From assembly GCA_030431255.1 (NCBI GenBank), contig JAUIJL010000006.1:468613-532612 (forward strand): a DNA stretch of 64,000 bases. Direction: 5' to 3'. Below, in pieces: positions 26,251 to 60,826 of the stretch. A program made the position numbers and the translations under genes. How positions within the stretch are numbered: position 1 is the first letter of the stretch; each line of letters starts with the position of its first letter. Origin of the DNA: Thermoanaerobaculia bacterium. GTDB taxonomy: Bacteria > Acidobacteriota > Thermoanaerobaculia > Multivoradales > J023. The notes under the pieces were generated by a model. It saw nothing but the letters and a program-made list of their open reading frames with translations, was not told where the DNA came from and searched no databases.

Positions 26251-26274
26251 TCGGGCTTTTGTTGGGAGTCATTT

Positions 26275-27636: not shown

Positions 27637-27657
27637 GGCCGGCTCGGTGTGTCGGTT

Positions 27658-28427: not shown

Positions 28428-28449
28428 AGGTGCCCTCCTTCCGACAGGT

Positions 28450-29073: not shown

Positions 29074-29217
29074 ATGTCACGTTACGCAGGGTAAGGTGCC
29101 TTATTCGATCGGCATTCTACTTTTTTCTGAGATCCCCGTCTTTCTTCTTCAGATTTGCTCTTATGGGCCGCTAGAAAAGCCGGGAAAAGCGCTTGGGTCA
29201 TCGGCTCGGAGGTTCTT

Positions 29218-31542: not shown

Positions 31543-32544
31543 TTATTGGATCTCTCCGAAGCCCTCCACGGCGTATTGCGCCCGTGCGAGGGCTTCTTCC
31601 ATCTTCTGCAGATCTTCGGCATTGGGAAGTCGGCCGGTCGGCATTTGGTTCTGACCAGCGCGGATCGCTGTTTCCAACCTGTAAATCGCTTCCATGAGAT
31701 CGCCGGTGGCCGAAGAGTCCGGGCGATCGGGTAGGAGCTCCCCGATGCTCTCCAGCTCGGCTTGCCACTCTTGCGCGGATTCTTGCCACCGGCTCAGAAG
31801 GTCTCGCCGCGCCAGCTGATCCCGCTCGAGGTTGCCGATCCCCTCGTTTTCCTCGATCGTATCCTCCGCCTCTGTGATGCCGGAGCCGATATGTCGCAGC
31901 AGCTCGTCGGCCGCGTCTCGATAGACGGCAAAGGTCACCTCGCTGCTGGGTTTGAGGGTGGCGGGCCTTCTGAACCATTTAGCGGATTGGAAAGAGCGTC
32001 CTCGCAGCTGGATCCACTTCGTCTGTACGGACTCGAGATCTTCGAGCCTGAATTCATCGGCCTTGATCGATGCCGAGAGCTCCTCAAGATCCGCGGCGAG
32101 CGCCTCCTGTCGAGCTTCCTGGGAGGATTTTAAGAGCTCCGACATGCGGTCGATTTCGAAAATCAGACCGTTGACGACGTCCTCGAAGGAGTCGGTGTCG
32201 GAAGGCTCGAAGAGTGCGATTTCTAGGCGAATCAGCTGAGATTGCATGGACTCGGGGTCGATCCGGACCCCCGATTGGGCTTGGTCGTCTTGATCCTCGT
32301 CACCAGGGAAGGTGTCGGTAATCTCCTCGCCTTCGTCACGATAAAGCGCCGGTCCGAAAATCTGAAAAGCGACCAGGGCAATTCCCAGCAGACAAAGAAG
32401 CACCATGATGAATTGCGGCCCACCCGGGCCTGAATCCACGTCGAGCTTGCGAAAGCCCTTCTTTTCCGCCAAAAACTTGTCGCGGGCTTCGAAGTACTTC
32501 CGCCTCTTTTCAGAAAGCGTTGGGCCGGGCTCAAAGTCGTCCAT
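31543..32544 (-). CDS. Hypothetical membrane-anchored acidic protein
   Basis: 333-aa ORF with a single helix FIMVLLCLLGIALVAFQIF after a basic N-terminus, followed by an acidic helix-rich region. No family recognised. Confidence 0.6.
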   Translation of the reverse strand: MDDFEPGPTLSEKRRKYFEARDKFLAEKKGFRKLDVDSGPGGPQFIMVLLCLLGIALVAFQIFGPALYRDEGEEITDTFPGDEDQDDQAQSGVRIDPESMQSQLIRLEIALFEPSDTDSFEDVVNGLIFEIDRMSELLKSSQEARQEALAADLEELSASIKADEFRLEDLESVQTKWIQLRGRSFQSAKWFRRPATLKPSSEVTFAVYRDAADELLRHIGSGITEAEDTIEENEGIGNLERDQLARRDLLSRWQESAQEWQAELESIGELLPDRPDSSATGDLMEAIYRLETAIRAGQNQMPTGRLPNAEDLQKMEEALARAQYAVEGFGEIQ

Positions 32545-41527: not shown

Positions 41528-41649
41528 CCCGCAGGAGAAACCTCGGAATCTCAACTTTGTGACGATTGAAGCGTATCTTGGGGTGCAGTCATCTAACCAA
41601 CCCGAAACACCCCGAGCAACCCTCGAATATCCGCTTGGTGAGGAGCTTC

Positions 41650-48950: not shown

Positions 48951-49469
48951 ATGCAAAGACCCAGCACCGGTGAGTACCACGAGTATTACGAAACCTACGT
49001 CGGCAAGGTGCCCGATGGTGACATCTTCCAGATCCTGGAGCAGGAGCTGAAGATCACCGAGGATCTGCTTCGGGGAGTACCGTCCGAGCTCGAGACACAC
49101 GCATATGACGAGGGCAAGTGGACGGTGCGGGAAGTCCTGGGCCACATGCTCGACACGGAGCGTGTTTTCGGCTTTCGGGCCCTATGGATGGCCCGTGGAG
49201 ACCAGCAGGGCCAACCGGGCATGGATCAAGATGCCTGGGGGGCCTTATCCAACGCCCGGGATCGGCCGCTGGTGGACTTGACGGAAGAATTCTCCTTGGC
49301 TCGACGCGGGCATCTGCTGATGTTCCGGGGATTCAGAGAGGAAGATTGGGCCCGGACCGGCACTGCCTCTGGGTTCCTTTTCACGGCCCGGGCGTTCCCT
49401 TTCATCATGGCCGGCCACGAGATCCATCATCGTCAGGTGTTGGCGGCGCGATATTTGACGGCCGATTGA
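48951..49469 (+). CDS. DinB family protein
   Basis: 172 aa. EYHEYYETYVGKV, WTVREVLGHMLDTERVF and the C-terminal AGHEIHHRQVL histidine triad pattern match DinB_2. Confidence 0.85.
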   Translation: MQRPSTGEYHEYYETYVGKVPDGDIFQILEQELKITEDLLRGVPSELETHAYDEGKWTVREVLGHMLDTERVFGFRALWMARGDQQGQPGMDQDAWGALSNARDRPLVDLTEEFSLARRGHLLMFRGFREEDWARTGTASGFLFTARAFPFIMAGHEIHHRQVLAARYLTAD

Positions 49470-50047
49470 TGTCGCGACCCGAACCCGATCCCCGTCAAAA
49501 GGGAGACCTGCTCGACCTGCTGGAAGAGCTTCAAGCCTTGGACAAGGTGCCGCGCTTGGGTTATGCCCAGCGCGGCGTGCCGGATCCCGAGAGTGTCAGC
49601 GAGCACTCGTTTCACGTGGTCTTCTTGGTTTGGGCGTTGTCCACGGACATTCCCGATTTCGATCGGTTTCGGGCGGTGGAAATCGCCTTGATCCACGACC
49701 TTGCGGAAGTGAGGTTCGGGGATTTGCCGCGCACCGCGGCCCACTATCTGCCGCCGGGTGCTAAAGACACGGCCGAGCTGACGGCGGTGACCGACCTGTT
49801 GGCACCGCTGGGCTCGGATTCAGCTTCTCTGCTGAGGGAATATCAGGAGCGCCGAACCCCCGAAGCTCACTTTGTGTCCGTGTGCGACAAATTGCAGCTG
49901 CTGATCAAGGCGGGGGTCTACCGGAAATGGCGTGCGGGGGCGGTGGATGAGTTCCTGGACGCCCTCGACAGCTTTGATGACGGGGGATTCGAGCCGGTCC
50001 GCAAGGTCGTGAGCCGGTTACGGAGCCGACGAGAAGAGCGAGATTAG
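49469..50047 (+). CDS. HD domain phosphohydrolase (YfbR-like)
   Basis: ATG 49469 overlaps the DinB stop (TGATG). Motifs VSEHSFHVVFLVWAL and ALIHDLAEVRFGDLP. The ORF-track start 49118 lies inside dinB in another frame and is rejected. Confidence 0.85.
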   Translation: MSRPEPDPRQKGDLLDLLEELQALDKVPRLGYAQRGVPDPESVSEHSFHVVFLVWALSTDIPDFDRFRAVEIALIHDLAEVRFGDLPRTAAHYLPPGAKDTAELTAVTDLLAPLGSDSASLLREYQERRTPEAHFVSVCDKLQLLIKAGVYRKWRAGAVDEFLDALDSFDDGGFEPVRKVVSRLRSRREERD

Positions 50048-50646
50048 TTGACGGCTTCCTCGCCGTGCAACGGCTCGGCTTCCACCTCGTCTAGATCGAC
50101 GCCTCTTTCGGCCAACATGGACTTGATCTTGGCGTAGATGTTGGTGTTGAGCAGCCCTTGTCCGGCGGTGAGCGCATCGCTCAAGGCTCTGCGCAGGGAG
50201 CCGGAGCCGCTCCAATATCTCTCCGCGAAGGGCTCGAGGTCCCGGCCGAAGGCTTGGGTCAGCATGGCCGCCGCCAACACCAGATCGTCGGCATAACCGG
50301 CCGGTCCGACGAAGGCCTCGGGTAGCAGATCCACGGGCAGAACGAAGTAAGCCAGGGCACCACCGATCAAGGCACGTTGCTCCTTGGGCACCTCGCGATC
50401 CAAAGCCAAGCGCAACAACAGCACGAACACGTCGGGGATGAGCAGGAAGAAATCCACCGCCTGGGGACCTAAGCGACCGCTCTTCTTCTCCACGTAGTCG
50501 GAAATGCGGTCCCGAAGGCGATCGTAAAAGCTCAGCAGGCCGGAGCTAGGTAAGTCGTCGTCGAAGCTCTCGCTTTGGGCCGACAACCCGCTGAGCTCGT
50601 CGATTTCCTGATCGTCCATTGTTCGTGCCTTGTGATCCTGATCCAT
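50044..50646 (-). CDS. DUF1232 (YkvA-like) membrane protein
   Basis: ALAYFVLPVDLLPEAFVGPAGYADDLVL is the DUF1232 core. Start placed at ATG 50646; ORF-track 50712 is an alternative. Confidence 0.7.
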   Translation of the reverse strand: MDQDHKARTMDDQEIDELSGLSAQSESFDDDLPSSGLLSFYDRLRDRISDYVEKKSGRLGPQAVDFFLLIPDVFVLLLRLALDREVPKEQRALIGGALAYFVLPVDLLPEAFVGPAGYADDLVLAAAMLTQAFGRDLEPFAERYWSGSGSLRRALSDALTAGQGLLNTNIYAKIKSMLAERGVDLDEVEAEPLHGEEAVN

Positions 50647-50775
50647 GGTGCTTGATCTCCCGAATGTGGTAGGCGCGGTGCGGTCCGGCTCGCACGTGCC
50701 GCAGAGCGGCAAGATTCTATCATCCGCGTTCGAGCTCGTGTGTGCGGGCCGCGGTCCCGATCAGAAGCGGTGCGA

Positions 50776-51762
50776 TCAGAAGATGTAGGCGGCGGCCAGG
50801 CCGATCTGGGCGAACATCAACATCATGTACATGTGTTTCCATGATGGATGATTCTCGGAGCGGGTCAGCTCTTCCGGGTCTTTGAGGATCAACGAGACGG
50901 TGTAGAGACCCCATGCTGTGAGCAGCACGCCGAGTCCGGTGAGCAGGGTGGCATTGCCGGTGAGAATCATCAGATCCGGATTTTGGGGATCGGGAATCCG
51001 CACGCCGATCGGTAGGAGCACCCAGGGGATGACGAAAAATGGCGCCATGATCCACGCGGCCTTGGTCGGCCCGTAGAGGATCGGTGGAGTTTTACAGCCC
51101 CCGGCTCGATCACCCTCGATGTCGGCAAAATCCTTGGTGGAGGCGGCACCGATCAGGAAGAGGGCCATAGTGAATCCGATGTACCAGGGCTCCCAATGCC
51201 AGATATGGGCGACCATGGCCCAGCCCGCGACTTTCAACAGGCAGCCCCGGGGGATGGCGATGGTGATGTTGGCCCAGATACCCAGAGCTTTAGTCCGGCC
51301 CAGCTCGGGTGCGGAGTAGATGAAGGTGAAGACCATGCCCACCAGATAGATGAAGAAGGTCTCATGGTAGGCCAAAGGAGCGCTGAGCTTTTCGCCCCAG
51401 GTGCTGTAGGGGTAGACCACGACCAGCCAGGTGGGAATCAAGGCCAGGGCGTAGCAGATCCAGGTGAAGATCCAACCCTCTCGGATGCTCAAATCTCCGG
51501 TGACCAACGGCCGGTCGGGTTTGTTGATCCGATCGATCTCCAGGTCGTAGATCTGATTGATGGCGTTGGACGCGGCATTCATCAGGCTGGCACAGAGGGA
51601 GCCGAGGGACACCGTGAGGATGACCGCCAGGGTCAGCCGGGATTCCGGGTCCGGATTGTGGGCGGAGCCGAAGGCGCAGACCGCGCCGGAGAGAATGCCC
51701 AGCAGCGGTGGCAGCAGGGTAAAGGGCCGCGCCAATTTGATGTAGTGGGAAAGTTTGCTCAT
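50776..51762 (-). CDS. UbiA family prenyltransferase (DGGGP-synthase/chlorophyll-synthase-like clade)
   Basis: IKLARPFTLLPP, first Asp-rich motif NAINQIYDLEIDRINKPDRPLVTG and second motif KDFADIEGDRAGG. About 8-9 helices. Confidence 0.85.
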   Translation of the reverse strand: MSKLSHYIKLARPFTLLPPLLGILSGAVCAFGSAHNPDPESRLTLAVILTVSLGSLCASLMNAASNAINQIYDLEIDRINKPDRPLVTGDLSIREGWIFTWICYALALIPTWLVVVYPYSTWGEKLSAPLAYHETFFIYLVGMVFTFIYSAPELGRTKALGIWANITIAIPRGCLLKVAGWAMVAHIWHWEPWYIGFTMALFLIGAASTKDFADIEGDRAGGCKTPPILYGPTKAAWIMAPFFVIPWVLLPIGVRIPDPQNPDLMILTGNATLLTGLGVLLTAWGLYTVSLILKDPEELTRSENHPSWKHMYMMLMFAQIGLAAAYIF

Positions 51763-51814
51763 GGGAACCTCGATATCTGCAAGGAGGCGTGGCCTCCGAA
51801 TGGGCGAGAGCGTC

Positions 51815-53191
51815 TCAGCCGAAGAGGGCGACTAGGGCCGCAGCGGCAAGGGCGCCGATCAGGGTGTTGAGAAAGTTTACCGATTCGTTGTCGAGCAACC
51901 CGGCTTTTTCGATGGTTGCGCCGACATAGCTTTCGAGGGTGGTACCGATGAAGGCCGCCAGGGTGATCAACGCAACGATCCAGGGTCCGTAAAACCCGAG
52001 AGCCCAGCCGAGGGCGGCCACCGCCGCCGAGCCGAGCACAGTCGCGAGAGTTCCCTCTAAAGACACCGCACCTTCTGTGCCGCGGGGCACTGGCTTGAGG
52101 GTGGTGATCAAGAAGGTGCGCCGCCCCCAAAGCTGGCCGATCTCCGAGCCCATGGTGTCGCCGGTGGCGGTGGCGAAAGCGGCGACAAAGGCCGGCAGAT
52201 AAATGTGTCCGAAATCGGTGGTGGCGGCGAAGACCGCGGCGATCATGGGCACACCGGTGTTGGCAAAAGCGTGGCGAGCCGATCGACGGCCGCCCCCTTC
52301 TTGGGCCAAGTTTCGTTCGGCCTTTTGCTTATACCCGAGCTTGGTGGCGCCGGTGCCGATGACGAAGAAGGCGACCAGGATCAACCATCCCTGCCAACCC
52401 AAGAAGGTCCAAATCGTGGTGCCGATGATCAGGCCACCGAAGTATCCGGAAACGTTGACCGAGCGTTTCAAATAGGCCAGGGCCCCCAGCACGGCGTTGG
52501 CGATCAAGCCGTAAACAGCCGCCGTGCCCAACGCGGCCCAATCCACGCTGAGCCAATAGCTCTCCGACAACAGCAGACCGTGTAGGACCAAGCCGGCCAG
52601 CAAGGGCACGCTGATGTTGTCGTCGAGGGCGATGGGTTGGGATTCGATCATTGCCGCGAAAAGGGACGTGACCGCCGCGGCGGCGATCAAAAACGGCAAG
52701 ACGTAGGGCTGATCGGTGCGGCTGAGGGTCCACCACAAGAGGGTCGCGGCGCCGAGGGTGCCGAACAACCAATAGGCCAACGTGCCGGACCAGCTTTTCT
52801 TGGGGTTCCAGGGCAACCTAGGGCCGCCGACGGTCATGCCGACGAGGGAGGCCATGCCGTCGCCGAAAGCCAGGATGGCCCAAATGGCGGCGGCTACCTC
52901 GAGACGATTCCAGAACACCAGGATCAATGCCAGGACAGCCGCCGGGTACAAAACGATGCCGAGGGAGGTGCCCCGCTCCTGTTCCGCTTGACGCCAAAGC
53001 ACCTTGCCGCCGACCCGCGGCAGAACGAAGAGATTCATCAACAAGGCGGCCAGGGCGCAGAGCGCCGAGTAGAAGGGGCCTAAATAGGCGACGGCAAAAG
53101 CAATCCCGCCCACGCCCATGTGCACGAGCTTGCGCAGAAGCTCCTTGCCGGTGACCCGCTCCGTTCCGGTGGCCGCCTCCGTCGAGCTCAT
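51815..53191 (-). CDS. Fusion membrane protein: CTP-dependent polyprenol (phytol/dolichol) kinase-like domain + DUF92/TMEM19 (VTE6-like) domain
   Basis: The N-terminal half has LRKLVHMGVGG and AFGDGMASLVGMTVGGPRLPWNPKKSWSGTLA (SEC59/DGK1/VTE5-type CTP-transferase motif). The C-terminal half has GTGATKLGYKQKAERNLAQEGGGRRSARHAFANTG and ATGDTMGSEIGQLWGRRTFLITTLKPVPRGTEGAVSLEGT (DUF92 motifs). ATG 53191 overlaps the upstream stop (ATGA). Confidence 0.75.
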   Translation of the reverse strand: MSSTEAATGTERVTGKELLRKLVHMGVGGIAFAVAYLGPFYSALCALAALLMNLFVLPRVGGKVLWRQAEQERGTSLGIVLYPAAVLALILVFWNRLEVAAAIWAILAFGDGMASLVGMTVGGPRLPWNPKKSWSGTLAYWLFGTLGAATLLWWTLSRTDQPYVLPFLIAAAAVTSLFAAMIESQPIALDDNISVPLLAGLVLHGLLLSESYWLSVDWAALGTAAVYGLIANAVLGALAYLKRSVNVSGYFGGLIIGTTIWTFLGWQGWLILVAFFVIGTGATKLGYKQKAERNLAQEGGGRRSARHAFANTGVPMIAAVFAATTDFGHIYLPAFVAAFATATGDTMGSEIGQLWGRRTFLITTLKPVPRGTEGAVSLEGTLATVLGSAAVAALGWALGFYGPWIVALITLAAFIGTTLESYVGATIEKAGLLDNESVNFLNTLIGALAAAALVALFG

Positions 53192-54186
53192 TTTGGCCAC
53201 TCCGGTAGGCTCTTGAGCCACTCTGCGGAGAGGCTCAGGCCCTCTTCCAAGGTTCGCCACGTGTAGCCCAGCTCGGTTTCGGCCTTTTGGTTGGAAAGGG
53301 CCCAATCGTGGCGGTAGACCTCGACCAAATCCGGTGTCAGCTTGGGGGTGCCGCCGGTCAGCTGTGCCCAGCCCTTCATCATGGCGCCGGATAGCTTGGC
53401 CATGGCGTCAGGCATTCGCAGACTCGGGGTTTTGATGCCGAATACCCTGCCGACCGTGGCATAGAAGTCGCCTTGGGTCACATTGTCGCCGGCGAGCACA
53501 AAGCGCTCGCCCACAGGGGCTTGCTCCAAGACCTTGACGATGCCCGCGGCCACGTCTTCCACGAACGAGTAATTCCACACCCTCTCCGCCTTGCCTAAAA
53601 GGGCCGGCAGACGCTTGTGGGCCAAGTCGAGCACGTGGCGCAAGACGATATTGCCCTCCGTCAGCTCCCCCGGCCCGTAGATCACTCCGGGGTAGATGAC
53701 GTTGAGAGGAACACCGGACTCGATGGCCTTACGGGCCGCGCGGTCGGAAAGGGTCTTGGTGCGCTCGTAGTCGTTGATCCACTGACGGTCGGCCACCGAG
53801 GCTTGCTCGTCGAGAACCCCACCGGGTCCGTTTTCCGTCGGGCCGAGAGCCATGAAGCTCGAGACGTAAACGACTTTTTGAATATCGAAGGCTTGAGCCG
53901 CGGCGATGACGTTCTCCAGGCCACCGATATTGATACGGTCGAATTGCTCGGCGGGGGCGAGGATTTTCACCAGGGCGGCGGCGTGGAGGATGGCGTCACA
54001 ATCCTGGGCGGCACGAATCAGGCTATCGCGATCGGTGACGTCGCCTTCCGCGAAGGTCACACCGTCGGGAAAGCGGTCCCGGTTAGAAGTAGGGCGCACG
54101 AGCAAGCGAAGCTCGTGGTTTTCGGCCAAGAGATCGACCGTCCGTCGGCCGAGGAAACCGGTACCGCCGGTGACGAGGAGCTTCAT
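53188..54186 (-). CDS. NAD-dependent epimerase/dehydratase family SDR (HpnA/dihydroflavonol-reductase-like)
   Basis: MKLLVTGGTGFLGRR Rossmann motif and extended-SDR layout. Substrate not assignable. Confidence 0.75.
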   Translation of the reverse strand: MKLLVTGGTGFLGRRTVDLLAENHELRLLVRPTSNRDRFPDGVTFAEGDVTDRDSLIRAAQDCDAILHAAALVKILAPAEQFDRINIGGLENVIAAAQAFDIQKVVYVSSFMALGPTENGPGGVLDEQASVADRQWINDYERTKTLSDRAARKAIESGVPLNVIYPGVIYGPGELTEGNIVLRHVLDLAHKRLPALLGKAERVWNYSFVEDVAAGIVKVLEQAPVGERFVLAGDNVTQGDFYATVGRVFGIKTPSLRMPDAMAKLSGAMMKGWAQLTGGTPKLTPDLVEVYRHDWALSNQKAETELGYTWRTLEEGLSLSAEWLKSLPEWPK

Positions 54187-55118
54187 GGGGTTTCTCCTTC
54201 AAGGCCCATTGTTTCGTGCCAAAGATCGTCGAGGGCTCGGTCGAGATCATAGCGCGGCTGCCATCCCAAGTCTTTGAGCCGGGAGATGTCACCTTGCAAC
54301 AGTGGAATGTCCACTGGTCGTACCCGTTCGGCCTCCACTTGGATCTCCGCCTGGACCCCGGAAGCCGCACGCAATCGGTCCAGGGCATCGGCGATGGAAT
54401 GTGCCTCGCCGCTGGCCAGATTGTAGATCTCACCCTGGCGACCCTGGCTCAGCACCACCTCATAACCGGCGACCGCGTCGGTGACGTGCAGAAAATCCCG
54501 TTTCGGGGATAGATCGCCGACTTTGATGACCGCCTCGCTGCGCCCGGCTCGGATGGACGCCAGCTGGGAGGCAAACGACGGCAACGCAAATTGACGGCTC
54601 TGACCCGGGCCGATGGAGTTGAACGACCGCACCACGATGGCACCGTGGTCGAGGGCGATTTCTTCGGCGCAGGCTTTGGTCATGGCGTAGGGGGAGCGGG
54701 GCTCCACCGGTCGATCCTCCGGGATCGGCTGCTCGTCCTCCGGCACGGAGCCGTAGACCTCGGCGCTGGAGGCGAAGAGCACCTTCAGCCCTTTCGCCAT
54801 GTGCATCAGGTTGCGGGTGCCACAGAAGTTGACCCGAAAATAATCTCCGGGTCGTCGCCAAGACTCGCCGACGTGGGACAAACCCGCCAAGTGCACGATG
54901 GCGTCGGGTCGGCAGTCGTCGATCGCGCGGCCGAGGGCGTCGCGGTCACAAATGTCGACGTTGTAGAGCGGAATCGAAGACAGCTCGGGGCTCATCTCGC
55001 GGTTGCCGGACGCAGCGGAAGCCAGACCGAAGACCTCGAAGACACCGCCCCGGCCGACGAGATGTCGTGCTAGGTGTTTGCCGACGAAACCAGTGATGCC
55101 GGTGATCAATACGCGCAT
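54183..55118 (-). CDS. NAD-dependent epimerase/dehydratase, GDP-6-deoxy-D-mannose reductase (Rmd)-like
   Basis: MRVLITGITGFVGKHL, PYAMTKACAE and SFNSIGPGQSRQFALPSFASQLA, followed by VGDLSPKRDFLHVTD. The pattern resembles Rmd/GDP-4-keto-6-deoxymannose reductases. Confidence 0.6.
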   Translation of the reverse strand: MRVLITGITGFVGKHLARHLVGRGGVFEVFGLASAASGNREMSPELSSIPLYNVDICDRDALGRAIDDCRPDAIVHLAGLSHVGESWRRPGDYFRVNFCGTRNLMHMAKGLKVLFASSAEVYGSVPEDEQPIPEDRPVEPRSPYAMTKACAEEIALDHGAIVVRSFNSIGPGQSRQFALPSFASQLASIRAGRSEAVIKVGDLSPKRDFLHVTDAVAGYEVVLSQGRQGEIYNLASGEAHSIADALDRLRAASGVQAEIQVEAERVRPVDIPLLQGDISRLKDLGWQPRYDLDRALDDLWHETMGLEGETP

Positions 55119-55322: not shown

Positions 55323-56294
55323 TCAGCCTCGTCCGTCGGCGATTCGGTCGACCCAATAATCGAAGGTGTCTTTGAGGGTCTTGTCGAACGGGATTTCGAT
55401 ATCCCAGCCGGTATCGGCTTTGAATTTGGAGGCATCACCGATCAAGATTTCTACGTCCGACGGGCGCATGCGAGCCGGATCCTCTCGGACCTCGACCTCG
55501 ACTCCGGACAGCTCGATCAGGCGGTCCAGCAGCTCTTGGATGGTGATCTCGCGACCGCTGGCGATATTGTAGACCTCGCCGGGCGTGGCCTTGTTGACCG
55601 CCAGCCAGTAGGCACGCACCATGTCGCGCACGTCGGTGAAATCGCGGATCGCGGTCAGGTTGCCCACGTGGATGACCGGTTCGTTGAGACCCGCTTTGAT
55701 CCGCGCCAGCTGCTTGGCGAAGTTCGAGGTCACGAAGACGTCGCCACGGCGGGGTCCGGTGTGGTTGAAGCCGCGGGTCCGGATCGCCTTGATGCCGTAG
55801 CTCTGGAAGTATTGGTAGCCCAAGTAGTCCTGGCTGACCTTGGAGACCGCGTACGGCGAGAGGGGCCGCAGGGGGTTAGTCTCCTTGATCGGCGTTTCCT
55901 CGGGTTTCACCAATCCGTATTCCTCGCTCGAGCAAGCGATTTGGATCACCGGGTCGAGCCCCAGGCGACGGACCGCCTCGAAAATATTGGTCTGGCCGAT
56001 GATGTTGGTGTTGAGGGTTTCGCTCGGCGCGTTCCAGCTGGTGGGCACGAAGCTTTGGGCGGCGAGGTGGAAGATGAAATCCGGCTTGACGGTTTCAAGG
56101 GTCGCGATGACCGAGTTGAAATCGCAGAGGTCGCATTCCAGCAGCTCGACTTGGTGCTCGATGCCTTGGATGTTTTCCATCGGGCTGCGCCACCGTCGGG
56201 TGCCGGCGACGTGAACATCTGGGTGGTTTTCGAGCAGATACTCGGCGAGATGGGATCCGGCGAAACCGGTAATACCCGTAATCAAAGCTCTCAT
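55323..56294 (-). CDS. gmd: GDP-mannose 4,6-dehydratase family SDR
   Basis: MRALITGITGFAGSHL, YAVSKVSQDYL, GFNHTGPRRGDVFVTSNFAKQLARI and VGNLTAIRDFTDVRD match the Gmd motif series. ATG 56294 overlaps the rmlD stop (ATGA). Confidence 0.7.
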   Translation of the reverse strand: MRALITGITGFAGSHLAEYLLENHPDVHVAGTRRWRSPMENIQGIEHQVELLECDLCDFNSVIATLETVKPDFIFHLAAQSFVPTSWNAPSETLNTNIIGQTNIFEAVRRLGLDPVIQIACSSEEYGLVKPEETPIKETNPLRPLSPYAVSKVSQDYLGYQYFQSYGIKAIRTRGFNHTGPRRGDVFVTSNFAKQLARIKAGLNEPVIHVGNLTAIRDFTDVRDMVRAYWLAVNKATPGEVYNIASGREITIQELLDRLIELSGVEVEVREDPARMRPSDVEILIGDASKFKADTGWDIEIPFDKTLKDTFDYWVDRIADGRG

Positions 56295-57145
56295 GATCTT
56301 GGATTCTCCAAAGTCTCTAAATAGGCGGTAAGACCGCAAATCCAGGGCTCTACGACGCGTCCTGTGGCGGTCTGGAATGTCTCAACATCTAAAACTGAGT
56401 AGGCTGGGCGCGGTGCCGGTCGGGGGAATTCCGAGGTCGGAACGGGTAAGACCTCGGCGCCTGGAGCGACGGCTCGTGCGATTTCCGTGGCGAAACCGTG
56501 CCATGAGACCGCGTCCCGATTCCCATAGTGCACCATGCCGGTGGTGCCCGCCGAAAGCAAATCCCAAAGGGCTCGTGCCACAAAGGGAGTGTAGGTGGGA
56601 CGCCCTATTTGGTCGTCCACCACCTTCAGCGGAGCCTTGCCTTCGAGCAAAAGTCGGCGGATCGTGGCGGCGAAATTGGGCCCGCCCGGGCCGAAAAGCC
56701 AGCTGGCTCGCACAACGAGTGCGCGATCATAACGCAATGCGTGGCTTTCGCCCACGAGCTTTCCGCGTCCATAGGCTGATTTTGGGCCGGTCGGCGCGGT
56801 TTCTAGGATCGGAGAGTCGGCTTGGCCGTCGAAAACGTAGTCGCTGGAGATGTGGACCAAGCGGGCGTTGATGGCGGCTGCAGCCTCGGCTAAGTCCGCG
56901 ACCGCGTGGCCATTGATGCGAGTGGCGAGCTCTTCCTGGGTCTCACAATCGTCCACCCGGGTGAAGGCGGCACAATTGACGATGACTTCCGGGCGAAAGC
57001 GTTCGACCCACTCTCGGATCTGTTGGGCTTGGGAGATGTCGGCTTGGACGCGGCTCAGGGCCAGAACGGTAGCACCTTGAAGGCGCCAGTAACGGGTGAC
57101 CGCCCGGCCGAGCATGCCGGCGCCGCCGAAAACCAAAGTACGCAT
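56291..57145 (-). CDS. rfbD: dTDP-4-dehydrorhamnose reductase family protein
   Basis: MRTLVFGGAGMLG, VIVNCAAFTRVDDCE and HISSDYVFDG..PKSAYGRGKLVGE are typical of RmlD. Confidence 0.85.
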   Translation of the reverse strand: MRTLVFGGAGMLGRAVTRYWRLQGATVLALSRVQADISQAQQIREWVERFRPEVIVNCAAFTRVDDCETQEELATRINGHAVADLAEAAAAINARLVHISSDYVFDGQADSPILETAPTGPKSAYGRGKLVGESHALRYDRALVVRASWLFGPGGPNFAATIRRLLLEGKAPLKVVDDQIGRPTYTPFVARALWDLLSAGTTGMVHYGNRDAVSWHGFATEIARAVAPGAEVLPVPTSEFPRPAPRPAYSVLDVETFQTATGRVVEPWICGLTAYLETLENPRS

Positions 57146-57163: not shown

Positions 57164-58237
57164 TCAGGAAACGCCGACCTCTGAGTTGTCGCCCAACATA
57201 AAGCGGTAGGCCTTAGGTTTGGCGGGGGATTTCACGATGCGGGCGTTCTTGCCCACGAGGGAGCCGTCGATGCGCACGGGGATGTCGCGGATCTCGCTGT
57301 TGGAGAGCACGATCGAATTTTCGATCTCGCTGTCGGCGATCACACAGCCGTCACCGATGGCGGAGTAGGGGCCGACGAAGGCATTTTCAATACGGGCGCC
57401 GTCACCGATGACCGCCGGGCCCCGGATGACGGAGTTGATCAGCTGCACGTCTTTGCCGATGCCGATTCGGCCCTCGAGGATGGTGCCGTCGCCGTGTTGG
57501 CCGTGTTGGCGCTTGAGGTCGTAGCTTTCGAGCACGATGCGGTTGGCTTCGAGCATGTCCTCAAGCTTGCCGGTGTCCTTCCACCATCCGCGGACCTTGT
57601 GGGGATGCACGCTCAAGTCGCGGTCGATCAGATCCTGGATGGCGTCGGTGATCTCGAGCTCGCCCCGGGCAGAAGGTTTGATGTTTTTGACCGAGTCGAA
57701 GATGTTTTTGTCGAACATATAAACGCCGACCAACGCCAAATTGCTCTTGGGCTCTTTGGGCTTTTCGGTGAGCCGCTCGATGGTCTCGCCGTCGGCGGTC
57801 AGCTCGGCGACGCCGAATTGCTGGGGGTTGGGAACCTCCGCCAGCAGGATTTGGGCGTTGCACCTCAGATCTTGGAACTCGGTGACCAGACTGGCGATGC
57901 CGCCGGCAATGAGGTTGTCGCCCAAGTACATGACGAAGGAGTCGTCACCGATGAAATCCTCGGCGATCATCACCGCGTGAGCCAACCCACGAGGTGCGTC
58001 TTGCTCGATGTAGGTCACCTCGGCGCCGAATTGGGAGCCGTCTCCGACCGCTTCTCGAATCTCGTCTTTGGTGTCGCCGACGATGATTCCGATGTCCGTA
58101 ATGCCGGCGGCGACAATCGACTCGATGCCGAAGAAAAGCACCGGTTTGTTGGCCACGGGCACCAACTGTTTGGCGGAGGTGTAGGTCAGGGGACGCAAAC
58201 GGGTCCCTTTGCCGCCGGAAAGAATTAAACCCTTCAT
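57164..58237 (-). CDS. rmlA: Glucose-1-phosphate thymidylyltransferase, long form (nucleotidyltransferase + left-handed beta-helix)
   Basis: MKGLILSGGKGTRLRPLTYTSAKQLVPVANKPVL plus C-terminal hexapeptide-repeat region. 357 aa, as in the long-form RmlA group. The sugar and nucleotide specificity is not provable from sequence. Confidence 0.8.
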   Translation of the reverse strand: MKGLILSGGKGTRLRPLTYTSAKQLVPVANKPVLFFGIESIVAAGITDIGIIVGDTKDEIREAVGDGSQFGAEVTYIEQDAPRGLAHAVMIAEDFIGDDSFVMYLGDNLIAGGIASLVTEFQDLRCNAQILLAEVPNPQQFGVAELTADGETIERLTEKPKEPKSNLALVGVYMFDKNIFDSVKNIKPSARGELEITDAIQDLIDRDLSVHPHKVRGWWKDTGKLEDMLEANRIVLESYDLKRQHGQHGDGTILEGRIGIGKDVQLINSVIRGPAVIGDGARIENAFVGPYSAIGDGCVIADSEIENSIVLSNSEIRDIPVRIDGSLVGKNARIVKSPAKPKAYRFMLGDNSEVGVS

Positions 58238-58411: not shown

Positions 58412-60826
58412 CTAGTTGAGGGATTCGTTCAAATCTAGGAAGGTTCCTACGTTCTTGAGCGACAGGGAGAAACGAATCTCGCTGTCCTTTGAGTCTGCGT
58501 CCCGGTATTGATGCTCGCGGAACTCCAAGTTCCAGTCGTAGCACTCCGAGATCCACTTGAGCACGTAGCGTTGAGCCAGCAATCGACGCCGATTCAAGGG
58601 TAGAGGGTCGATCAAGTTGTAATTGATTTGGGCGCCGAAGATCACCTTTTCCGGCACCAGCTCCAGGTTGGTGGAGAAACGGATTTGGTTGCTGGTCTCT
58701 CGACCACGCATGATCCCGCCCATGCCGTCGGCGTCGTTGGCCCATTGGGTGAACCAGGAGAGGCCGAAGCCGAATCGATCCGCGATTTTGGTGTTACCGG
58801 AGAAGTTGCGTGAGGTGATCGCGCTGGCCTGGGTGTCGTAACGCAGCTCGAATTTGAAGCTGGTGTCCTCATTCGGATTGACCCGCAAGGTCGAGAAAAT
58901 AGGACCTTCGCTTTGCTCGGTGTCGTCGTTGCCTTCGATGAAGTCGTCGATCACATAGGCCTGGGAAAAGGCCAGGGATGCGATTTCGAAGGCGCCACCC
59001 CCCTCTTCTTCATCTCGGGGTTTTGCCAGCAGCCGATTGACGATCGAAACGACCCCTTGGTTGAGGGGATTGATCAGATCGAGCTCGTCAAAGCGAGACA
59101 ACCGGAAACGCTCCTCGAATTCGTCCACGTAGGTGTATGTGAACCTCGGCTCGATGATGTGCTTGAATTTAGAGTATTTTCCGCCGTCTTTCTCGAAGAC
59201 TCGGGAGAAGCTGGGGCCGACGATCTCGAGCTTGCCGGAGGGCAGGAAGCGGTCCACCGCGTCGCCGTCCAGGGGGTCGTCGTTGAGGGCGTGATCAGGA
59301 TTGTCCGGGTCGTCGAGGGTTTTGGTGTAGTAAGTGTAGCGGGCACCCACCGACAGCTTGGCCGACAGCCAGGGCAGAGTGCTGATCGGAATCGACAGGG
59401 TCGGCGAGAAGTCGGCACGTCCGTATTGCAGGCTTTCGCTGGCGAGCAGGGCGGGCTTTTCCGTGTCGAGATTTTGCTCGTAGCGTTCGAAGTCGGCTTG
59501 GAAGTAGTTCACCGAGCTGGTCAGACTCAGGTAAAGCGGCAGCGAGCCCAGGCGCGTGGAACGCATCCGCCATTCGACCTCCGGCAGCTGGTGAAGAGTC
59601 CTGCGGTTGCTGGTATTGACCGTGGCGCCGGTGTCGTCGGTAATGGTGCCTTCGTCTACCAGCTCCCGGCGATCGACCATGAAGTTCAGAGAATGGGCGC
59701 CGACATTGGAGCTCAAGAAGGCGTTGGAATAAATAAAGGGTTGGGTCTGACGGTCGACGCTGCGCTCGATGTCCCGCAAGTAGTCGAAGTCGGAATAGAG
59801 CTGCAGGTTCACCACGCCGCGAAAGCGGTCCCACACGTTTTTGGTTTCGTGCTGCCACAAAAGCTTCCAACGGTCGTCGCCCAAGACCCGCTCGGGGTCG
59901 AGCAGCTCCCTATTGCTGTCGGTCAGGAAGGCGTCGTCCGGCTCGGTGGTGTAGTAGAGGTCGAAAACGCCCTTGGTGTCTTCGGAGGGTCGGTAACGAT
60001 ATTCCCATCCGGCGCCGTTGAATTCGTTGGTCGAAAGGTCGAGGAAGAAAGTCGTGTCGGCGCTGCGTCCGAGGGTCTTGTAATAAGCGAGGCTCACATG
60101 GGCGCCGCGGCGGTCGGAATAACCGGGTTTCGGCACCAGCCAGCCGGATGTCCGCTCGGTGGTGGCGGGCCACAAGATGTAGGGCGTGTAGAAGACGGGA
60201 ACTTTGCCGAAGCGCAACCGAGCGTTGCGGATCCGGGCGTACTCTTCCATGGTGATGTCGGCTCGGCTCATGGCCAAGCTCCAGCTGGGATCCTCACCTT
60301 CACAGGAGGTGAACATGCCGTTCTCGACCGTGAAGGTCATCGGCCCGACTTTTTCGATCTCGGTGCCGGAGAAATAGAAACCCGGCTGGACCGCCGCCAT
60401 GGCGTTGGTCATTCGACCGGTTTTGGTCTTGAGGTCGTATTCGAGCACGTCGCCGCTCAGGCGCTCGGGACCTTGGTCGAGGATCACGTTGCCCTCGGCG
60501 GTCAGCCGATCGGCGGGAATGTCGAGCCGAATGGTGTCGGCCTCGACCGAAAGATCGCCGTATTTCAGCTCGACGCCCTGGCTGGCGACCAAGATCCGTC
60601 CAGGCTGAAATTGGTAGTCGCCGGCGGATCCGCGGATTCGTCCGCCGGCTCCTTGGGCATCCAGGGCCACGTCAAAGGTGGCGCGGGGTTCTTGATCTTC
60701 CGTGGCTTGCTCGTCGGCTCCAGCCTCTGCTGAATCCTGAGCCAGAACAGGGCCGATGCCGGCCCAAGGAAGCATGATCATCGAAATGGCGGCGATCCGG
60801 GAGGCGAAGGGCAACGCGCGTGTCAT
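58412..60826 (-). CDS. lptD: LPS-assembly outer membrane protein LptD (OstA family)
   Basis: Signal peptide. OstA_N-like segment ADTIRLDIPADRLTAEGNVILDQGPERLSGDVLEYDLKTKTG, followed by a large aromatic-rich beta-barrel region. 804 aa. Confidence 0.75.
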   Translation of the reverse strand: MTRALPFASRIAAISMIMLPWAGIGPVLAQDSAEAGADEQATEDQEPRATFDVALDAQGAGGRIRGSAGDYQFQPGRILVASQGVELKYGDLSVEADTIRLDIPADRLTAEGNVILDQGPERLSGDVLEYDLKTKTGRMTNAMAAVQPGFYFSGTEIEKVGPMTFTVENGMFTSCEGEDPSWSLAMSRADITMEEYARIRNARLRFGKVPVFYTPYILWPATTERTSGWLVPKPGYSDRRGAHVSLAYYKTLGRSADTTFFLDLSTNEFNGAGWEYRYRPSEDTKGVFDLYYTTEPDDAFLTDSNRELLDPERVLGDDRWKLLWQHETKNVWDRFRGVVNLQLYSDFDYLRDIERSVDRQTQPFIYSNAFLSSNVGAHSLNFMVDRRELVDEGTITDDTGATVNTSNRRTLHQLPEVEWRMRSTRLGSLPLYLSLTSSVNYFQADFERYEQNLDTEKPALLASESLQYGRADFSPTLSIPISTLPWLSAKLSVGARYTYYTKTLDDPDNPDHALNDDPLDGDAVDRFLPSGKLEIVGPSFSRVFEKDGGKYSKFKHIIEPRFTYTYVDEFEERFRLSRFDELDLINPLNQGVVSIVNRLLAKPRDEEEGGGAFEIASLAFSQAYVIDDFIEGNDDTEQSEGPIFSTLRVNPNEDTSFKFELRYDTQASAITSRNFSGNTKIADRFGFGLSWFTQWANDADGMGGIMRGRETSNQIRFSTNLELVPEKVIFGAQINYNLIDPLPLNRRRLLAQRYVLKWISECYDWNLEFREHQYRDADSKDSEIRFSLSLKNVGTFLDLNESLN

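What the first reader, a model, noticed from the sequence alone, without database searches (positions are those of the whole stretch)
50776..54186. Fusion of a phytol/dolichol-kinase-like domain with a DUF92 (VTE6-like) domain, coupled to an SDR and followed by a UbiA prenyltransferase
Seen: one 458-aa membrane protein (51815..53191) combines two domains. One is a CTP-dependent polyprenol kinase signature (LVHMGVGG; FGDGMASLVGMTVGGPRLPWNPKKSWSGTLA). The other is the two DUF92/TMEM19 motifs (GATKLGYKQK..GGGRRSARHAFANTG; GDTMGSEIGQL...LKPVPRGTEGAVSLEGT). Its ATG overlaps the stop of an HpnA/DFR-like SDR, and a UbiA-family enzyme with NQIYDLEIDRINKPDRPLVTG lies 52 nt downstream. Established: in plants and cyanobacteria VTE5 (phytol kinase) and VTE6 (phytyl-phosphate kinase, DUF92) act sequentially to convert a free isoprenoid alcohol into its diphosphate, which UbiA-type prenyltransferases then use. 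UbiA enzymes with this motif include archaeal DGGGP synthase, chlorophyll synthase and polyprenyl-phosphate phosphoribosyltransferase. Inference: this is a self-contained salvage-and-transfer module (polyprenol to polyprenyl-P to polyprenyl-PP to prenylated acceptor). It could serve ether-type or prenylated lipid synthesis, or production of a lipid-linked sugar donor for the GT-C enzyme. Both kinase steps fused in one polypeptide is something I have not seen described.
Basis: partly seen in the sequence, partly recalled or inferred. Interest (0 to 1): 0.65.

Follow-up and report, generated by a model that had tools for sequence, protein, structure and literature searches.

The report
Fused two-step prenol kinase with prenyltransferase
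An uncultured Acidobacteriota bacterium encodes one membrane protein that joins a phytol/dolichol-kinase-like domain to a phytyl-phosphate-kinase-like (DUF92) domain, next to a chlorophyll-synthase/archaeal-lipid-synthase-like prenyltransferase; the fusion is real and conserved but was already described in archaea, and what the prenyltransferase alkylates remains unknown.

Summary
The 458-aa protein (51815-53191, minus strand) has two domains. The C-terminal half matches Pfam DUF92, the family of plant VTE6 (E 1e-58). Pfam and NCBIfam miss the N-terminal half, but a profile comparison with proteins named phytol kinase gives 99.9% probability (E 4e-31), so it belongs to the VTE5/FOLK/dolichol-kinase family.

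The fusion is not an artefact. Four independent assemblies give the same sequence, and 480 species genomes encode a relative. The best 80 are all full-length fusions labelled Acidobacteriota or left unclassified, apart from one labelled Deltaproteobacteria.

Other lineages encode the two kinase domains as adjacent separate genes.

The UbiA enzyme scores about equally against DGGGP synthase and chlorophyll synthase and passes no curated family cut-off.

The novelty claim fails: Makarova et al. (2015) described the same domain fusion in archaea.

Most likely function (inferred, not shown): prenol to prenyl-P to prenyl-PP, which the UbiA enzyme then transfers to an unknown acceptor. This is a new member of a known kind, of moderate interest.

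The parts
52514..53191 (-). N-terminal domain of the fusion protein (residues 1-226): prenol kinase domain of the VTE5/FOLK/Sec59 (COG0170) type
   Evidence: hhalign against proteins named phytol or dolichol kinase gives 99.86%, E 3.6e-31. A profile of its stand-alone homologues hits plant 'probable phytol kinase 3' at E 1e-20 to 2e-21. Invariant residues are R20-K21-x-x-H24, G110-D111-G112, K132-x-W134-x-G136, E183-S184 and D190-D191-N192. The best Foldseek PDB match is CdsA 4q2g, but it is weak (probability 0.77, E 0.31).
51815..52513 (-). C-terminal domain of the fusion protein (residues 227-458): DUF92/COG1836 domain, the family of the plant phytyl-phosphate kinase VTE6
   Evidence: PF01940 at E 1.2e-58, 198.9 bits against a cut-off of 27.5. 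TIGR00297 scores 200.9 bits, just under its 205.85 cut-off. Invariant residues are D345-T346-x-x-S349-E350, G371-T372-x-G374-A375-x-S377-x-E379-G380-T381, E420-S421 and N435-E436, with D434 nearly invariant. It is distantly related to the N-domain (hhalign E 3e-4, probability 39%).
50776..51762 (-). UbiA-superfamily prenyltransferase (328 aa) of the ChlG/DGGGPS/HPT-like group; acceptor unknown
   Evidence: PF01040 at E 2.9e-34. PDB matches for the single sequence are chlorophyll a synthase at 5.5e-14 and DGGGP synthase at 3.6e-13; with a family profile they are 6.6e-16 and 3.2e-17. Every NCBIfam equivalog scores far below its cut-off. Both Asp-rich motifs, N69-Q-I-x-D73-x3-D77 and D211-x2-D214-x3-D218, are invariant in 16 homologues. 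The gene follows the kinase in 77 of 88 loci.
53188..54186 (-). Extended SDR (332 aa), related to HpnA, aldehyde reductases and cinnamoyl-CoA reductase; its stop codon overlaps the kinase start (ATGA)
   Evidence: Pfam Epimerase at 9.8e-30 and NAD_binding_4 at 5.4e-21. HpnA scores 184.6 bits, below its 367.65 cut-off. The best PDB match is 3wj7 'putative oxidoreductase' at 1.2e-39, followed by a nucleoside-diphosphate-sugar epimerase (2x4g, 2.6e-15) and two unnamed epimerase-type entries, then cinnamoyl-CoA reductases and sterol-4-alpha-carboxylate 3-dehydrogenase. The GxxGxxG and YxxxK motifs are visible in the sequence. A gene match lies directly upstream of the kinase in about 70 of the 80 genome loci.
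54183..55118 (-). NDP-sugar 4-reductase or epimerase-like SDR (311 aa), closest to GDP-6-deoxy-D-lyxo-4-hexulose reductase (RMD); its stop codon overlaps the SDR start (ATGA)
   Evidence: PF16363 at 1.2e-60. PDB matches are 2pk3 at 4.9e-54 and 6x3b at 4e-45. Conserved in position.
55323..56294 (-). GDP-sugar 4,6-dehydratase or reductase-like SDR (public gene aa; the ORF list extends it to a TTG at 56339)
   Evidence: PF16363 at 4.8e-85. PDB matches are 2pk3 at 1.1e-80 and 7us5 (GDP-heptose 4,6-dehydratase) at 1.5e-74. The public gene call is; synteny is.
56291..57145 (-). RmlD (dTDP-4-dehydrorhamnose reductase)
   Evidence: TIGR01214 scores 271.1 bits, above its 224.05 cut-off. Synteny.
57164..58237 (-). 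Long-form RmlA (sugar-1-phosphate nucleotidylyltransferase); first gene of the conserved string
   Evidence: TIGR01208 scores 473.5 bits, above its 320.25 cut-off. Synteny.
50044..50712 (-). DUF1232 membrane protein (public gene aa), often the gene after UbiA
   Evidence: PF06803 at 8.4e-13. Found within the fetched flanks in 44 of 88 loci, usually directly downstream of UbiA.
58412..60826 (-). LptD, directly upstream of the string; context only, not shown to be part of the module
   Evidence: Pfam LptD and LptD_2 on the public gene call. Present within the fetched flanks in 51 of 88 loci, including the more distant lineage.

Best explanation
The 458-aa protein is a genuine bifunctional membrane enzyme of the prenol salvage type.

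Proposed steps:
1. The N-terminal VTE5/FOLK/dolichol-kinase-like domain phosphorylates a free isoprenoid alcohol to the monophosphate, using a nucleoside triphosphate (CTP in the characterised relatives).
2. The C-terminal DUF92/VTE6-like domain adds the second phosphate.
3. The resulting prenyl diphosphate goes to the UbiA enzyme encoded 52 nt downstream. This enzyme is related to chlorophyll synthase and DGGGP synthase, both of which O-alkylate their acceptors, and it attaches the chain to an acceptor that is still unknown.
4. The SDR translationally coupled upstream may supply the alcohol by reducing a lipid aldehyde. This is the weakest step.

The module is the end of a string conserved in Acidobacteriota (NDP-6-deoxyhexose genes, then SDR, kinase and UbiA, downstream of lptD), so the product is probably a cell-envelope lipid.

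Shown: the domain identities, the reality and conservation of the fusion, and the synteny. Inferred: every catalytic activity, the chain length, the acceptor, and any link to the sugar genes.
For: - Domain identities: PF01940 at E 1.2e-58. N-domain against named phytol kinases, hhalign 99.86%, E 3.6e-31. A profile of stand-alone N-domain homologues retrieves plant and algal phytol kinases and many JGI 'dolichol kinase' entries.
- Catalytic motifs are invariant in both halves across 39 homologues. These include the R-K-x-x-H clamp described for Plasmodium prenol kinase (PMC10849223) and the paired Asp positions noted by Makarova et al..
- The two domains act as partners. They are fused here and in archaea, and they are encoded by adjacent genes 5-6 nt apart in other lineages.
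- Kinase-UbiA adjacency holds in 77 of 88 loci, down to 42-54% kinase identity.
- The UbiA enzyme keeps both Asp-rich motifs. Its nearest relatives use C20 prenyl diphosphates: ChlG, DGGGPS and HPT.
- The best solved relative of the SDR is 3wj7 (E 1.2e-39). After three weaker epimerase-type entries come cinnamoyl-CoA reductases and a sterol 3-dehydrogenase, so the strongest match is not a named nucleotide-sugar epimerase.
- ATGA overlaps link reductase to SDR and SDR to kinase.
- Established knowledge: in plants, VTE5 then VTE6 make phytyl-PP for the UbiA-type enzymes VTE2 and ChlG (PMC5694494).
Against: - No activity was measured for any of these proteins.
- These bacteria are not known phototrophs, so the source and identity of a free prenol are unclear.
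- The adjacent-gene (split) kinase pairs examined in other lineages (L083, L084) have no UbiA gene next to them. About 11 of 88 loci lack an adjacent UbiA. The kinase therefore does not strictly need this UbiA.
- The long conserved gene order could partly be inherited synteny within one phylum.
- The UbiA enzyme passes no curated family threshold.
- The DUF92 family is distantly related to cytidylyltransferases, so a reaction other than phosphorylation is not excluded.
- Structure comparison gave only weak support: CdsA ranked first, but at E 0.31.
- The SDR is missing from about 8 of the 80 genome loci.
Confidence: 0.55

Rival explanations
1. Carrier-lipid recycling. The N-domain is a polyprenol (bactoprenol or dolichol-like) kinase that regenerates polyprenyl phosphate for assembling envelope glycans from the NDP-6-deoxyhexoses made by the upstream genes. 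The DUF92 domain and the UbiA enzyme would then have another or an accessory role.
For: - The N-domain family includes dolichol kinases, and JGI names its stand-alone homologues 'dolichol kinase'.
- The module is conserved behind rmlA, rmlD and GMD/RMD-like genes and lptD.
- In archaea, DUF92 genes sit beside the cis-prenyltransferase gene uppS (PMC5898192).
Against: - A carrier lipid needs only the monophosphate, so a conserved second kinase-like domain and a UbiA enzyme that consumes a diphosphate are left unexplained.
- The Rml block is absent from about 15 of the 80 genome loci while SDR, kinase and UbiA stay together.
- No glycosyltransferase lies within the string.
Confidence: 0.18
2. 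Archaeal-type ether lipid synthesis. The UbiA enzyme is a true DGGGP synthase that adds a geranylgeranyl chain to geranylgeranylglyceryl phosphate, and the kinase salvages geranylgeraniol for it. This is a special case of the best explanation with the acceptor specified.
For: - With a family profile, the best solved match is M. jannaschii DGGGP synthase at 3.2e-17.
- JGI and NCBI name some orthologues geranylgeranylglycerol-phosphate geranylgeranyltransferase.
- Bacterial DGGGPS-like genes are widespread (PMC6431249).
Against: - The DGGGPS equivalog models score 68-70 bits against cut-offs of 296-353.
- Chlorophyll synthase scores equally well.
- No GGGPS, G1P dehydrogenase or CDP-archaeol synthase was seen among the annotated genes of the 64-kb window or in the flanks.
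- To my knowledge, no isoprenoid glycerol ethers are reported from cultured Acidobacteria.
Confidence: 0.1
3. No functional coupling. The fused kinase feeds the general isoprenoid diphosphate pool (menaquinone, carotenoids, polyprenols). Its position beside the UbiA, SDR and sugar genes is inherited gene order only.
For: - The adjacent-gene (split) kinase pairs examined in other lineages stand in unrelated neighbourhoods without a UbiA gene.
- Nearly all loci that show the synteny are labelled Acidobacteriota or left unclassified, so they appear to come from a single phylum.
Against: - Adjacency survives divergence to 42-54% identity and a change of downstream context (GrpE, TsaD).
- Start and stop codons overlap or are closely spaced.
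- The pairing mirrors the plant sequence VTE5, VTE6, then VTE2 or ChlG.
Confidence: 0.15
4. The fusion is an artefact: a frameshift or assembly error has joined two genes.
For: The one apparent 785-aa kinase-UbiA fusion (P0027) is such an artefact. It lies on a 1.97x long-read contig, and the kinase C-terminus is replaced by out-of-frame sequence.
Against: - For the two-domain kinase itself, four runs give identical sequence with 0 gaps.
- Hundreds of full-length homologues at 53-93% identity have a continuous alignment across the domain junction.
Confidence: 0.01

Closest known systems
Archaeal COG0170-COG1836 fusion proteins (arCOG02245 with an N-terminal Sec59-like domain, e.g. Methanosarcina barkeri Mbar_A3310; Makarova, Galperin and Koonin 2015, PMC5898192)
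   Same: The domain order and families are the same: an N-terminal dolichol/phytol-kinase-like domain followed by a C-terminal PF01940/DUF92 domain. The paired catalytic Asp positions are conserved in both halves. An archaeal fusion (P0368, Diapherotrites) matches this N-domain at E 4.7e-29.
   Different: This one is bacterial (Acidobacteriota). The reported archaeal genomic context is uppS, whereas here the protein is linked to a UbiA prenyltransferase, SDRs and NDP-sugar genes. Neither version has been tested biochemically.
Plant and cyanobacterial phytol salvage: VTE5 (phytol kinase), VTE6 (phytyl-phosphate kinase, At1g78620, COG1836), then VTE2/HPT or chlorophyll synthase
   Same: The same two protein families act in the same order, and a UbiA-superfamily enzyme is the consumer. 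The UbiA enzyme here is nearest to ChlG, DGGGPS and HPT.
   Different: In plants the two kinases are separate proteins. The organism here is not known to be a phototroph. No homogentisate or tocopherol genes were seen. The UbiA enzyme is below threshold for the ChlG and HPT models. Substrate and acceptor are unknown.
CTP-dependent prenol kinases FOLK (Arabidopsis) and PfPolK (Plasmodium falciparum)
   Same: The N-domain shares the R-K-x-x-H clamp and the GDG, K-S-x-x-G, E and DN motifs.
   Different: Those are single-domain enzymes that yield only the monophosphate. Here a second kinase-like domain is attached.
CdsA / CarS intramembrane cytidylyltransferases (PF01148; PDB 4Q2E, 4Q2G, 5GUF)
   Same: They belong to the same superfamily. 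There is a weak PF01148 match, and CdsA is the top Foldseek match for the N-domain model. They share a paired-Asp metal site according to Makarova et al..
   Different: Those enzymes transfer CMP to a lipid phosphate, whereas kinases of this family transfer a phosphate to a lipid alcohol. The sequence and structure similarity found here is below significance.
Digeranylgeranylglyceryl phosphate synthase and (bacterio)chlorophyll synthase
   Same: These are the nearest characterised relatives of the UbiA enzyme. Both motifs, N-x3-D-x3-D and D-x2-D-x3-D, are conserved.
   Different: Scores are far below the family cut-offs, and the partner enzymes of both pathways are absent from the window. The protein forms its own highly conserved subfamily, with 70-93% identity among the best 120 homologues.

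Membership tests
VTE5/FOLK/Sec59 prenol (phytol/dolichol) kinase family (COG0170) | Significant full-domain homology to proteins annotated or characterised as phytol or dolichol kinases | tested here: met
   hhalign of the N-domain profile A2 against A5 (plant 'probable phytol kinase 3', Klebsormidium phytol kinase, JGI phytol and dolichol kinases) gives 99.86%, E 3.6e-31 over 189 columns. Profile A3 hits these proteins at E 1e-16 to 2e-21 in a database of 5.8 billion sequences.
VTE5/FOLK/Sec59 prenol (phytol/dolichol) kinase family (COG0170) | Family motifs: the R-K-x-x-H clamp, G-D-G-x-A, K-(S/T)-x-x-G-(T/S), a conserved Glu, and D-N-(L/I)-x-V-P | tested here: met
   All are invariant in 39 homologues and aligned to the same motifs in the named kinases. 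The clamp is described in PMC10849223.
VTE5/FOLK/Sec59 prenol (phytol/dolichol) kinase family (COG0170) | Match to the Pfam model PF01148 above its gathering score | tested here: not met
   E 0.016, 15.5 bits against a cut-off of 24. The test is uninformative, because the first reference scanned, the plant protein named probable phytol kinase 3 (P0483), matched no Pfam family, and only 1 of the 10 reference proteins matched PF01148, at E 0.0011.
VTE5/FOLK/Sec59 prenol (phytol/dolichol) kinase family (COG0170) | CTP-dependent phosphorylation of a prenol | not testable with these tools
   Needs an enzyme assay.
DUF92 / COG1836 / VTE6 (phytyl-phosphate kinase) family | Match to PF01940 above its gathering score, over the full model | tested here: met
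   198.9 bits against a cut-off of 27.5, covering model positions 3-251 of 251. COG1836 corresponds to pfam01940, and At1g78620 is assigned to COG1836.
DUF92 / COG1836 / VTE6 (phytyl-phosphate kinase) family | TIGR00297 trusted cut-off | tested here: inconclusive
   200.9 bits against a cut-off of 205.85. NCBI and JGI nevertheless name the orthologues 'TIGR00297 family protein'.
DUF92 / COG1836 / VTE6 (phytyl-phosphate kinase) family | Prenyl-phosphate to prenyl-diphosphate kinase activity | not testable with these tools
   Needs an enzyme assay.
UbiA prenyltransferase superfamily | PF01040 above its gathering score and both Asp-rich motifs intact | tested here: met
   118.9 bits against a cut-off of 34.2. 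N69-x3-D73-x3-D77 and D211-x2-D214-x3-D218 are invariant.
DGGGP synthase (archaeal lipid synthesis) | Curated equivalog score, and presence of the pathway partners GGGPS, G1PDH and CarS | tested here: not met
   NF009521 and NF009522 score 70 and 68 bits against cut-offs of 296 and 353. No partner genes were seen among the window genes scanned. The rest of the genome could not be examined.
Chlorophyll / bacteriochlorophyll synthase | Curated equivalog or subfamily score | tested here: not met
   NF005742 scores 98.7 against 313, TIGR01476 79.7 against 212.3, and TIGR02056 59.2 against 436.
Homogentisate phytyltransferase (VTE2) | Curated equivalog score | tested here: not met
   NF009525 scores 66.8 bits against a cut-off of 226.
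Housekeeping quinone or heme UbiA enzymes (MenA, UbiA, CyoE/CtaB) | Best similarity to, or curated score for, these families | tested here: not met
   Scores are 25-36 bits against cut-offs of 210-277, well below the ChlG and DGGGPS scores.
Decaprenyl-phosphate phosphoribosyltransferase (DPPR synthase) | Similarity to the curated family model | tested here: not met
   None of the 23 NCBIfam matches at E <= 0.01 is named a phosphoribosyltransferase. I did not confirm that the library holds a model for this family.

The most novel reading that the evidence does not exclude
The conserved string (NDP-6-deoxyhexose genes, then an aldehyde-reductase-like SDR, a fused prenol/prenyl-P kinase and a ChlG/DGGGPS-like O-prenyltransferase, downstream of lptD) makes an undescribed isoprenoid-ether or isoprenoid-ester envelope lipid. 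This would be either an archaeal-like glycerol ether or an O-prenylated sugar lipid. It would be a widespread membrane component of Acidobacteriota, built from a re-activated or scavenged isoprenoid alcohol such as phytol or geranylgeraniol.
Probability: 0.15. Interest if true: 0.75.

Novelty: new member of a known kind. Interest (0 to 1): 0.4.

Why it matters
A 2026 review states that prenol kinases have been characterised only in plants, cyanobacteria and Plasmodium, and that the second enzyme of the pathway, prenyl-phosphate kinase, is known only from VTE6 (PMC13022625).

A compact bacterial protein with both domains, and hundreds of natural variants, would be a convenient system for three things:
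- showing both reactions biochemically;
- solving a structure for DUF92/TMEM19 — none of my sequence-profile or Foldseek searches of the PDB returned a significant match;
- building a one-gene route from prenols to prenyl diphosphates.

The tight link to a very conserved, unassigned UbiA enzyme in an abundant environmental phylum also points to an isoprenoid lipid that has not been looked for. That bears on bacterial ether lipids and on the origin of lipid biomarkers.

Current annotation calls these proteins only 'DUF92/TIGR00297 family' and misses the kinase domain.

Tried and rejected
- **Pfam and NCBIfam on the N-domain alone.** Pfam gave only a sub-threshold PF01148 match and NCBIfam gave nothing. 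Scanning 15 stand-alone homologues gave 1 weak PF01148 match. This was not counted against the assignment, because the plant protein named probable phytol kinase 3 matched no Pfam family and only 1 of the 10 reference proteins matched PF01148, weakly.
- **Sequence-profile searches of the PDB.** Neither the N-domain nor the whole protein gave a meaningful match.
- **Foldseek with the full-length AlphaFold model (pLDDT 89.4).** No significant match; CdsA ranked only 34th.
- **Foldseek with the N-domain model.** CdsA ranked first, but at E 0.31 and TM about 0.35. I treat this as weak support only.
- **The 785-aa 'DUF92+UbiA' protein P0027.** I considered it as Rosetta-stone evidence for kinase-UbiA coupling and rejected it. 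It lies on a 1.97x long-read contig, and the kinase C-terminus is replaced by out-of-frame residues.
- **Promoter and terminator scan.** Counts equal chance expectation.
- **RNA-seq runs.** None available.
- **vom Dorp et al. 2015 (discovery of VTE6).** The paper is not held in the library. I therefore could not verify my recollection that it used prokaryotic clustering or fusion of COG1836 with phytol kinase.
- **GT-C link.** The two large membrane ORFs at 19.7-23.1 kb have no Pfam match and are about 28 kb away.
- **UbiA phylogeny.** Scores against curated models and PDB matches were used as a proxy.

Full report
**What is there**

Three genes lie head to tail on the minus strand:
- an extended SDR (53188-54186, 332 aa);
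- a 458-aa membrane protein (51815-53191);
- a UbiA-family protein (50776-51762, 328 aa).

All quoted peptide motifs are present.

**The C-terminal half**

Residues 232-447 match Pfam PF01940 (DUF92) over the whole model at E 1.2e-58. They score 200.9 bits against TIGR00297, just under its cut-off of 205.85. PF01940 equals COG1836 (PMC5898192). Arabidopsis At1g78620, later named VTE6, is a COG1836 protein predicted to act in phytol-phosphate metabolism (PMC3223725; PMC5694494).

**The N-terminal half**

Curated libraries nearly miss this half. Pfam gives only PF01148 at E 0.016 (15.5 bits, cut-off 24), and NCBIfam gives nothing. I therefore tested it by transitive and profile methods.

- A phmmer scan of 1.8 billion representative proteins with residues 1-226 found 1818 clusters at E <= 0.001. 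Many are fusions of about 450 aa and some are stand-alone proteins of about 200 aa. JGI names one of the latter 'dolichol kinase'.
- A profile of 15 stand-alone homologues (A3) retrieved plant 'probable phytol kinase 3, chloroplastic' (E 1e-20 to 2e-21), the Klebsormidium phytol kinase (E 1e-16) and many JGI 'dolichol kinase' or 'phytol kinase' entries.
- A profile-profile comparison of the window's N-domain family (A2) with ten of these distant hits, seven of them named phytol/dolichol kinase or the like by a source (A5), gave 99.86% probability, E 3.6e-31, over 189 columns spanning the whole domain.
- The alignment places the R-K-x-x-H clamp, G-D-G-x-A, K-S-x-x-G-T, the conserved Glu and D-N-x-x-V-P motifs on top of each other. 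The clamp is the one described for the Plasmodium prenol kinase (PMC10849223).
- The Sesamum protein named probable phytol kinase 3 matched no Pfam family, and only 1 of the 10 reference proteins matched PF01148, weakly. The weak Pfam result is therefore not evidence against the assignment.

Structure gave only weak support. The AlphaFold models are confident (pLDDT 89.4). However, Foldseek found nothing significant for the whole protein. For the N-domain alone it ranked CdsA first at E 0.31, probability 0.77. The two halves are distantly related to each other (hhalign E 3e-4, probability 39%). This fits the published view that both belong to the CTP-transferase-1 superfamily.

**Is the fusion real?**

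Yes.
- Contigs assembled independently from four DNA runs (two studies, one of them a biofloc metagenome) match 50700-54300 with no substitutions or gaps.
- A search of 5.8 billion proteins gave more than 2000 homologues. Nearly all of the best 120 are full length at about 450 aa; the exceptions are a few shorter partial sequences and the 785-aa artefact P0027.
- In an alignment of 39 homologues at 55-81% identity there are invariant residues throughout both halves and no break at the junction.
- In a collection with one genome per species, 480 genomes encode a relative. The best 80 are labelled Acidobacteriota (Thermoanaerobaculia, Holophagales, 'Multivoradales') or left unclassified, apart from one labelled Deltaproteobacteria.

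**Context**

A tblastn search of the window's proteins against these loci shows a larger conserved string: long-form rmlA, rmlD, a GDP-sugar 4,6-dehydratase-like SDR, an RMD-like reductase, the SDR, the kinase, UbiA, and often a DUF1232 protein. lptD lies upstream in 51 of 88 loci.

The string is modular:
- about 15 of the 80 genome loci lack the Rml block but keep SDR, kinase and UbiA;
- about 8 lack the SDR;
- UbiA is adjacent in 77 of 88 loci.

A more distant lineage (kinase 42-54% identical) has a different downstream context (GrpE, TsaD) but again shows SDR, SDR, kinase and UbiA, with LptD upstream in two of its three loci.

In still other lineages the two kinase domains are separate genes 5-6 nt apart, with no UbiA gene nearby. 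The two domains are therefore obligate partners, while the UbiA link appears confined to the Acidobacteriota-type loci retrieved here. An apparent 785-aa kinase-UbiA fusion (P0027) is a frameshift artefact on a 1.97x contig.

**The neighbours**

- UbiA keeps both Asp-rich motifs and is strikingly conserved, at 70-93% identity among the best 120 homologues.
- Its nearest solved relatives are chlorophyll a synthase and M. jannaschii DGGGP synthase. They are essentially tied: 5.5e-14 and 3.6e-13 with the single sequence, 6.6e-16 and 3.2e-17 with a family profile.
- In NCBIfam the best matches are a generic archaeal-type prenyltransferase, ChlG/BchG, DGGGPS and homogentisate phytyltransferase, all far below their cut-offs. 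MenA, UbiA and heme O synthase score much lower, and no match was named a phosphoribosyltransferase (DPPR-synthase type).
It is also not a certified member of any known subfamily.
- The best solved relative of the SDR is 3wj7, 'putative oxidoreductase', at E 1.2e-39. From memory this is Gluconobacter oxydans Gox2253, an NADPH-dependent aliphatic aldehyde reductase (Yin et al. 2014); the citation was seen, but the identity of the PDB entry was not verified. The next matches, at E 1e-15 to 1e-13, are epimerase-type entries; cinnamoyl-CoA reductases and a sterol 3-dehydrogenase follow.
- The two SDRs further upstream resemble GDP-6-deoxy-D-lyxo-4-hexulose reductase and GDP-heptose/mannose 4,6-dehydratases.

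**Mechanism**

The best-supported reading has three steps: free isoprenoid alcohol to prenyl phosphate (N-domain), then to prenyl diphosphate (DUF92 domain), then transfer by UbiA to an unknown acceptor. UbiA's closest relatives O-alkylate a hydroxyl group (DGGGPS) or a carboxylate (ChlG).

The gene order SDR, kinase, UbiA and the SDR's aldehyde-reductase affinity suggest that the SDR may make the alcohol. This step is speculative. The association with NDP-6-deoxyhexose genes and lptD hints at an envelope lipid.

Only the domain identities, the conservation and the synteny are shown. All activities are inferred from family membership and from the plant pathway of VTE5, VTE6, then VTE2 or ChlG.

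The rivals are:
- recycling of polyprenyl-phosphate carrier lipid for glycan assembly;
- a true DGGGPS making archaeal-type ethers (no GGGPS, G1PDH or CarS was seen in the window);
- co-location without functional coupling.

**Novelty**

The fusion is not new as an architecture. Makarova, Galperin and Koonin (2015) reported arCOG02245/COG1836 proteins with an N-terminal Sec59/COG0170-like domain, for example Mbar_A3310. They noted the conserved Asp pairs and proposed a kinase step in isoprenoid metabolism.

As far as my limited literature searches show, two things are not described: the large bacterial family in Acidobacteriota, and its conserved pairing with an unassigned ChlG/DGGGPS-like UbiA enzyme, an aldehyde-reductase-like SDR and deoxyhexose genes. 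Public annotation labels these proteins only 'DUF92/TIGR00297 family'.

I rate it a new member of a known kind, of moderate interest. It is a good experimental handle on prenol and prenyl-phosphate kinases, which remain characterised only in plants, cyanobacteria and Plasmodium (PMC13022625). It also points to a possible unknown isoprenoid lipid in a major environmental phylum.

Noticed in passing
The order is kept in most of the 80 related genome loci, which are nearly all labelled Acidobacteriota or left unclassified. The three junctions RMD-like to SDR to kinase overlap by ATGA.
   Followed up: yes
L083 6001-7373; L084 6001-7389: In other, unidentified lineages the kinase-like domain (208-209 aa) and the DUF92 domain (246-250 aa) are separate genes only 5-6 nt apart, with no UbiA gene nearby. 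This is a split version of the fusion.
   Followed up: partly
L087 3474-5831 (protein P0027): A 785-aa 'kinase+UbiA' protein in the public collection is a frameshift artefact. It lies on a 1.97x long-read contig, and the last helix of the kinase is replaced by out-of-frame residues that run into UbiA.
   Followed up: yes
proteins P0483, P0481, P0484, P0487 (alignment A5): Pfam PF01148 matched only 1 of the 10 phytol/dolichol-kinase reference proteins (E 0.0011), and the Sesamum 'probable phytol kinase 3' matched no Pfam family at all. Domain scans therefore under-annotate this kinase family, which is why the acidobacterial fusions are labelled only DUF92.
   Followed up: partly
window 15292-30132: This is a polysaccharide-synthesis region with an ABC-transporter ATPase, GT4 and several GT2 glycosyltransferases, a PIG-L deacetylase-GT2 fusion and a methyltransferase. 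Two large minus-strand ORFs (19699-21585, 628 aa; 21582-23105, 507 aa) have no Pfam match.
   Followed up: partly
window 12089-15157 (+): A 1022-aa ORF has no Pfam match at E <= 0.01. ORFs at 10349-11728 (+) and 31543-32544 (-) also have none.
   Followed up: no
window 41566-44091 (+): An 841-aa permease has duplicated MacB_PCD and FtsX domains. From memory this is the 'ADOP' type common in Acidobacteria, which fits the taxonomic assignment of the window.
   Followed up: no
window 55323-56339 (-): The mechanical ORF list starts the GMD-like gene at a TTG that overlaps rmlD by 49 nt. The public gene call is 323 aa and starts at the ATG near 56294, which fits the N-terminal GxxGxxG motif better.
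   Followed up: partly
window 49469-50047 (+): An HD-domain (YfbR-like) phosphohydrolase converges on the end of the string and is found within the flanks of 27 of 88 related loci. A phosphatase beside a prenol-kinase module could matter for prenyl-phosphate turnover. This was not examined.
   Followed up: no
window 33459-35732 (+): A malic enzyme fused to a phosphate acetyltransferase-like domain (MaeB type). This is ordinary.
   Followed up: no
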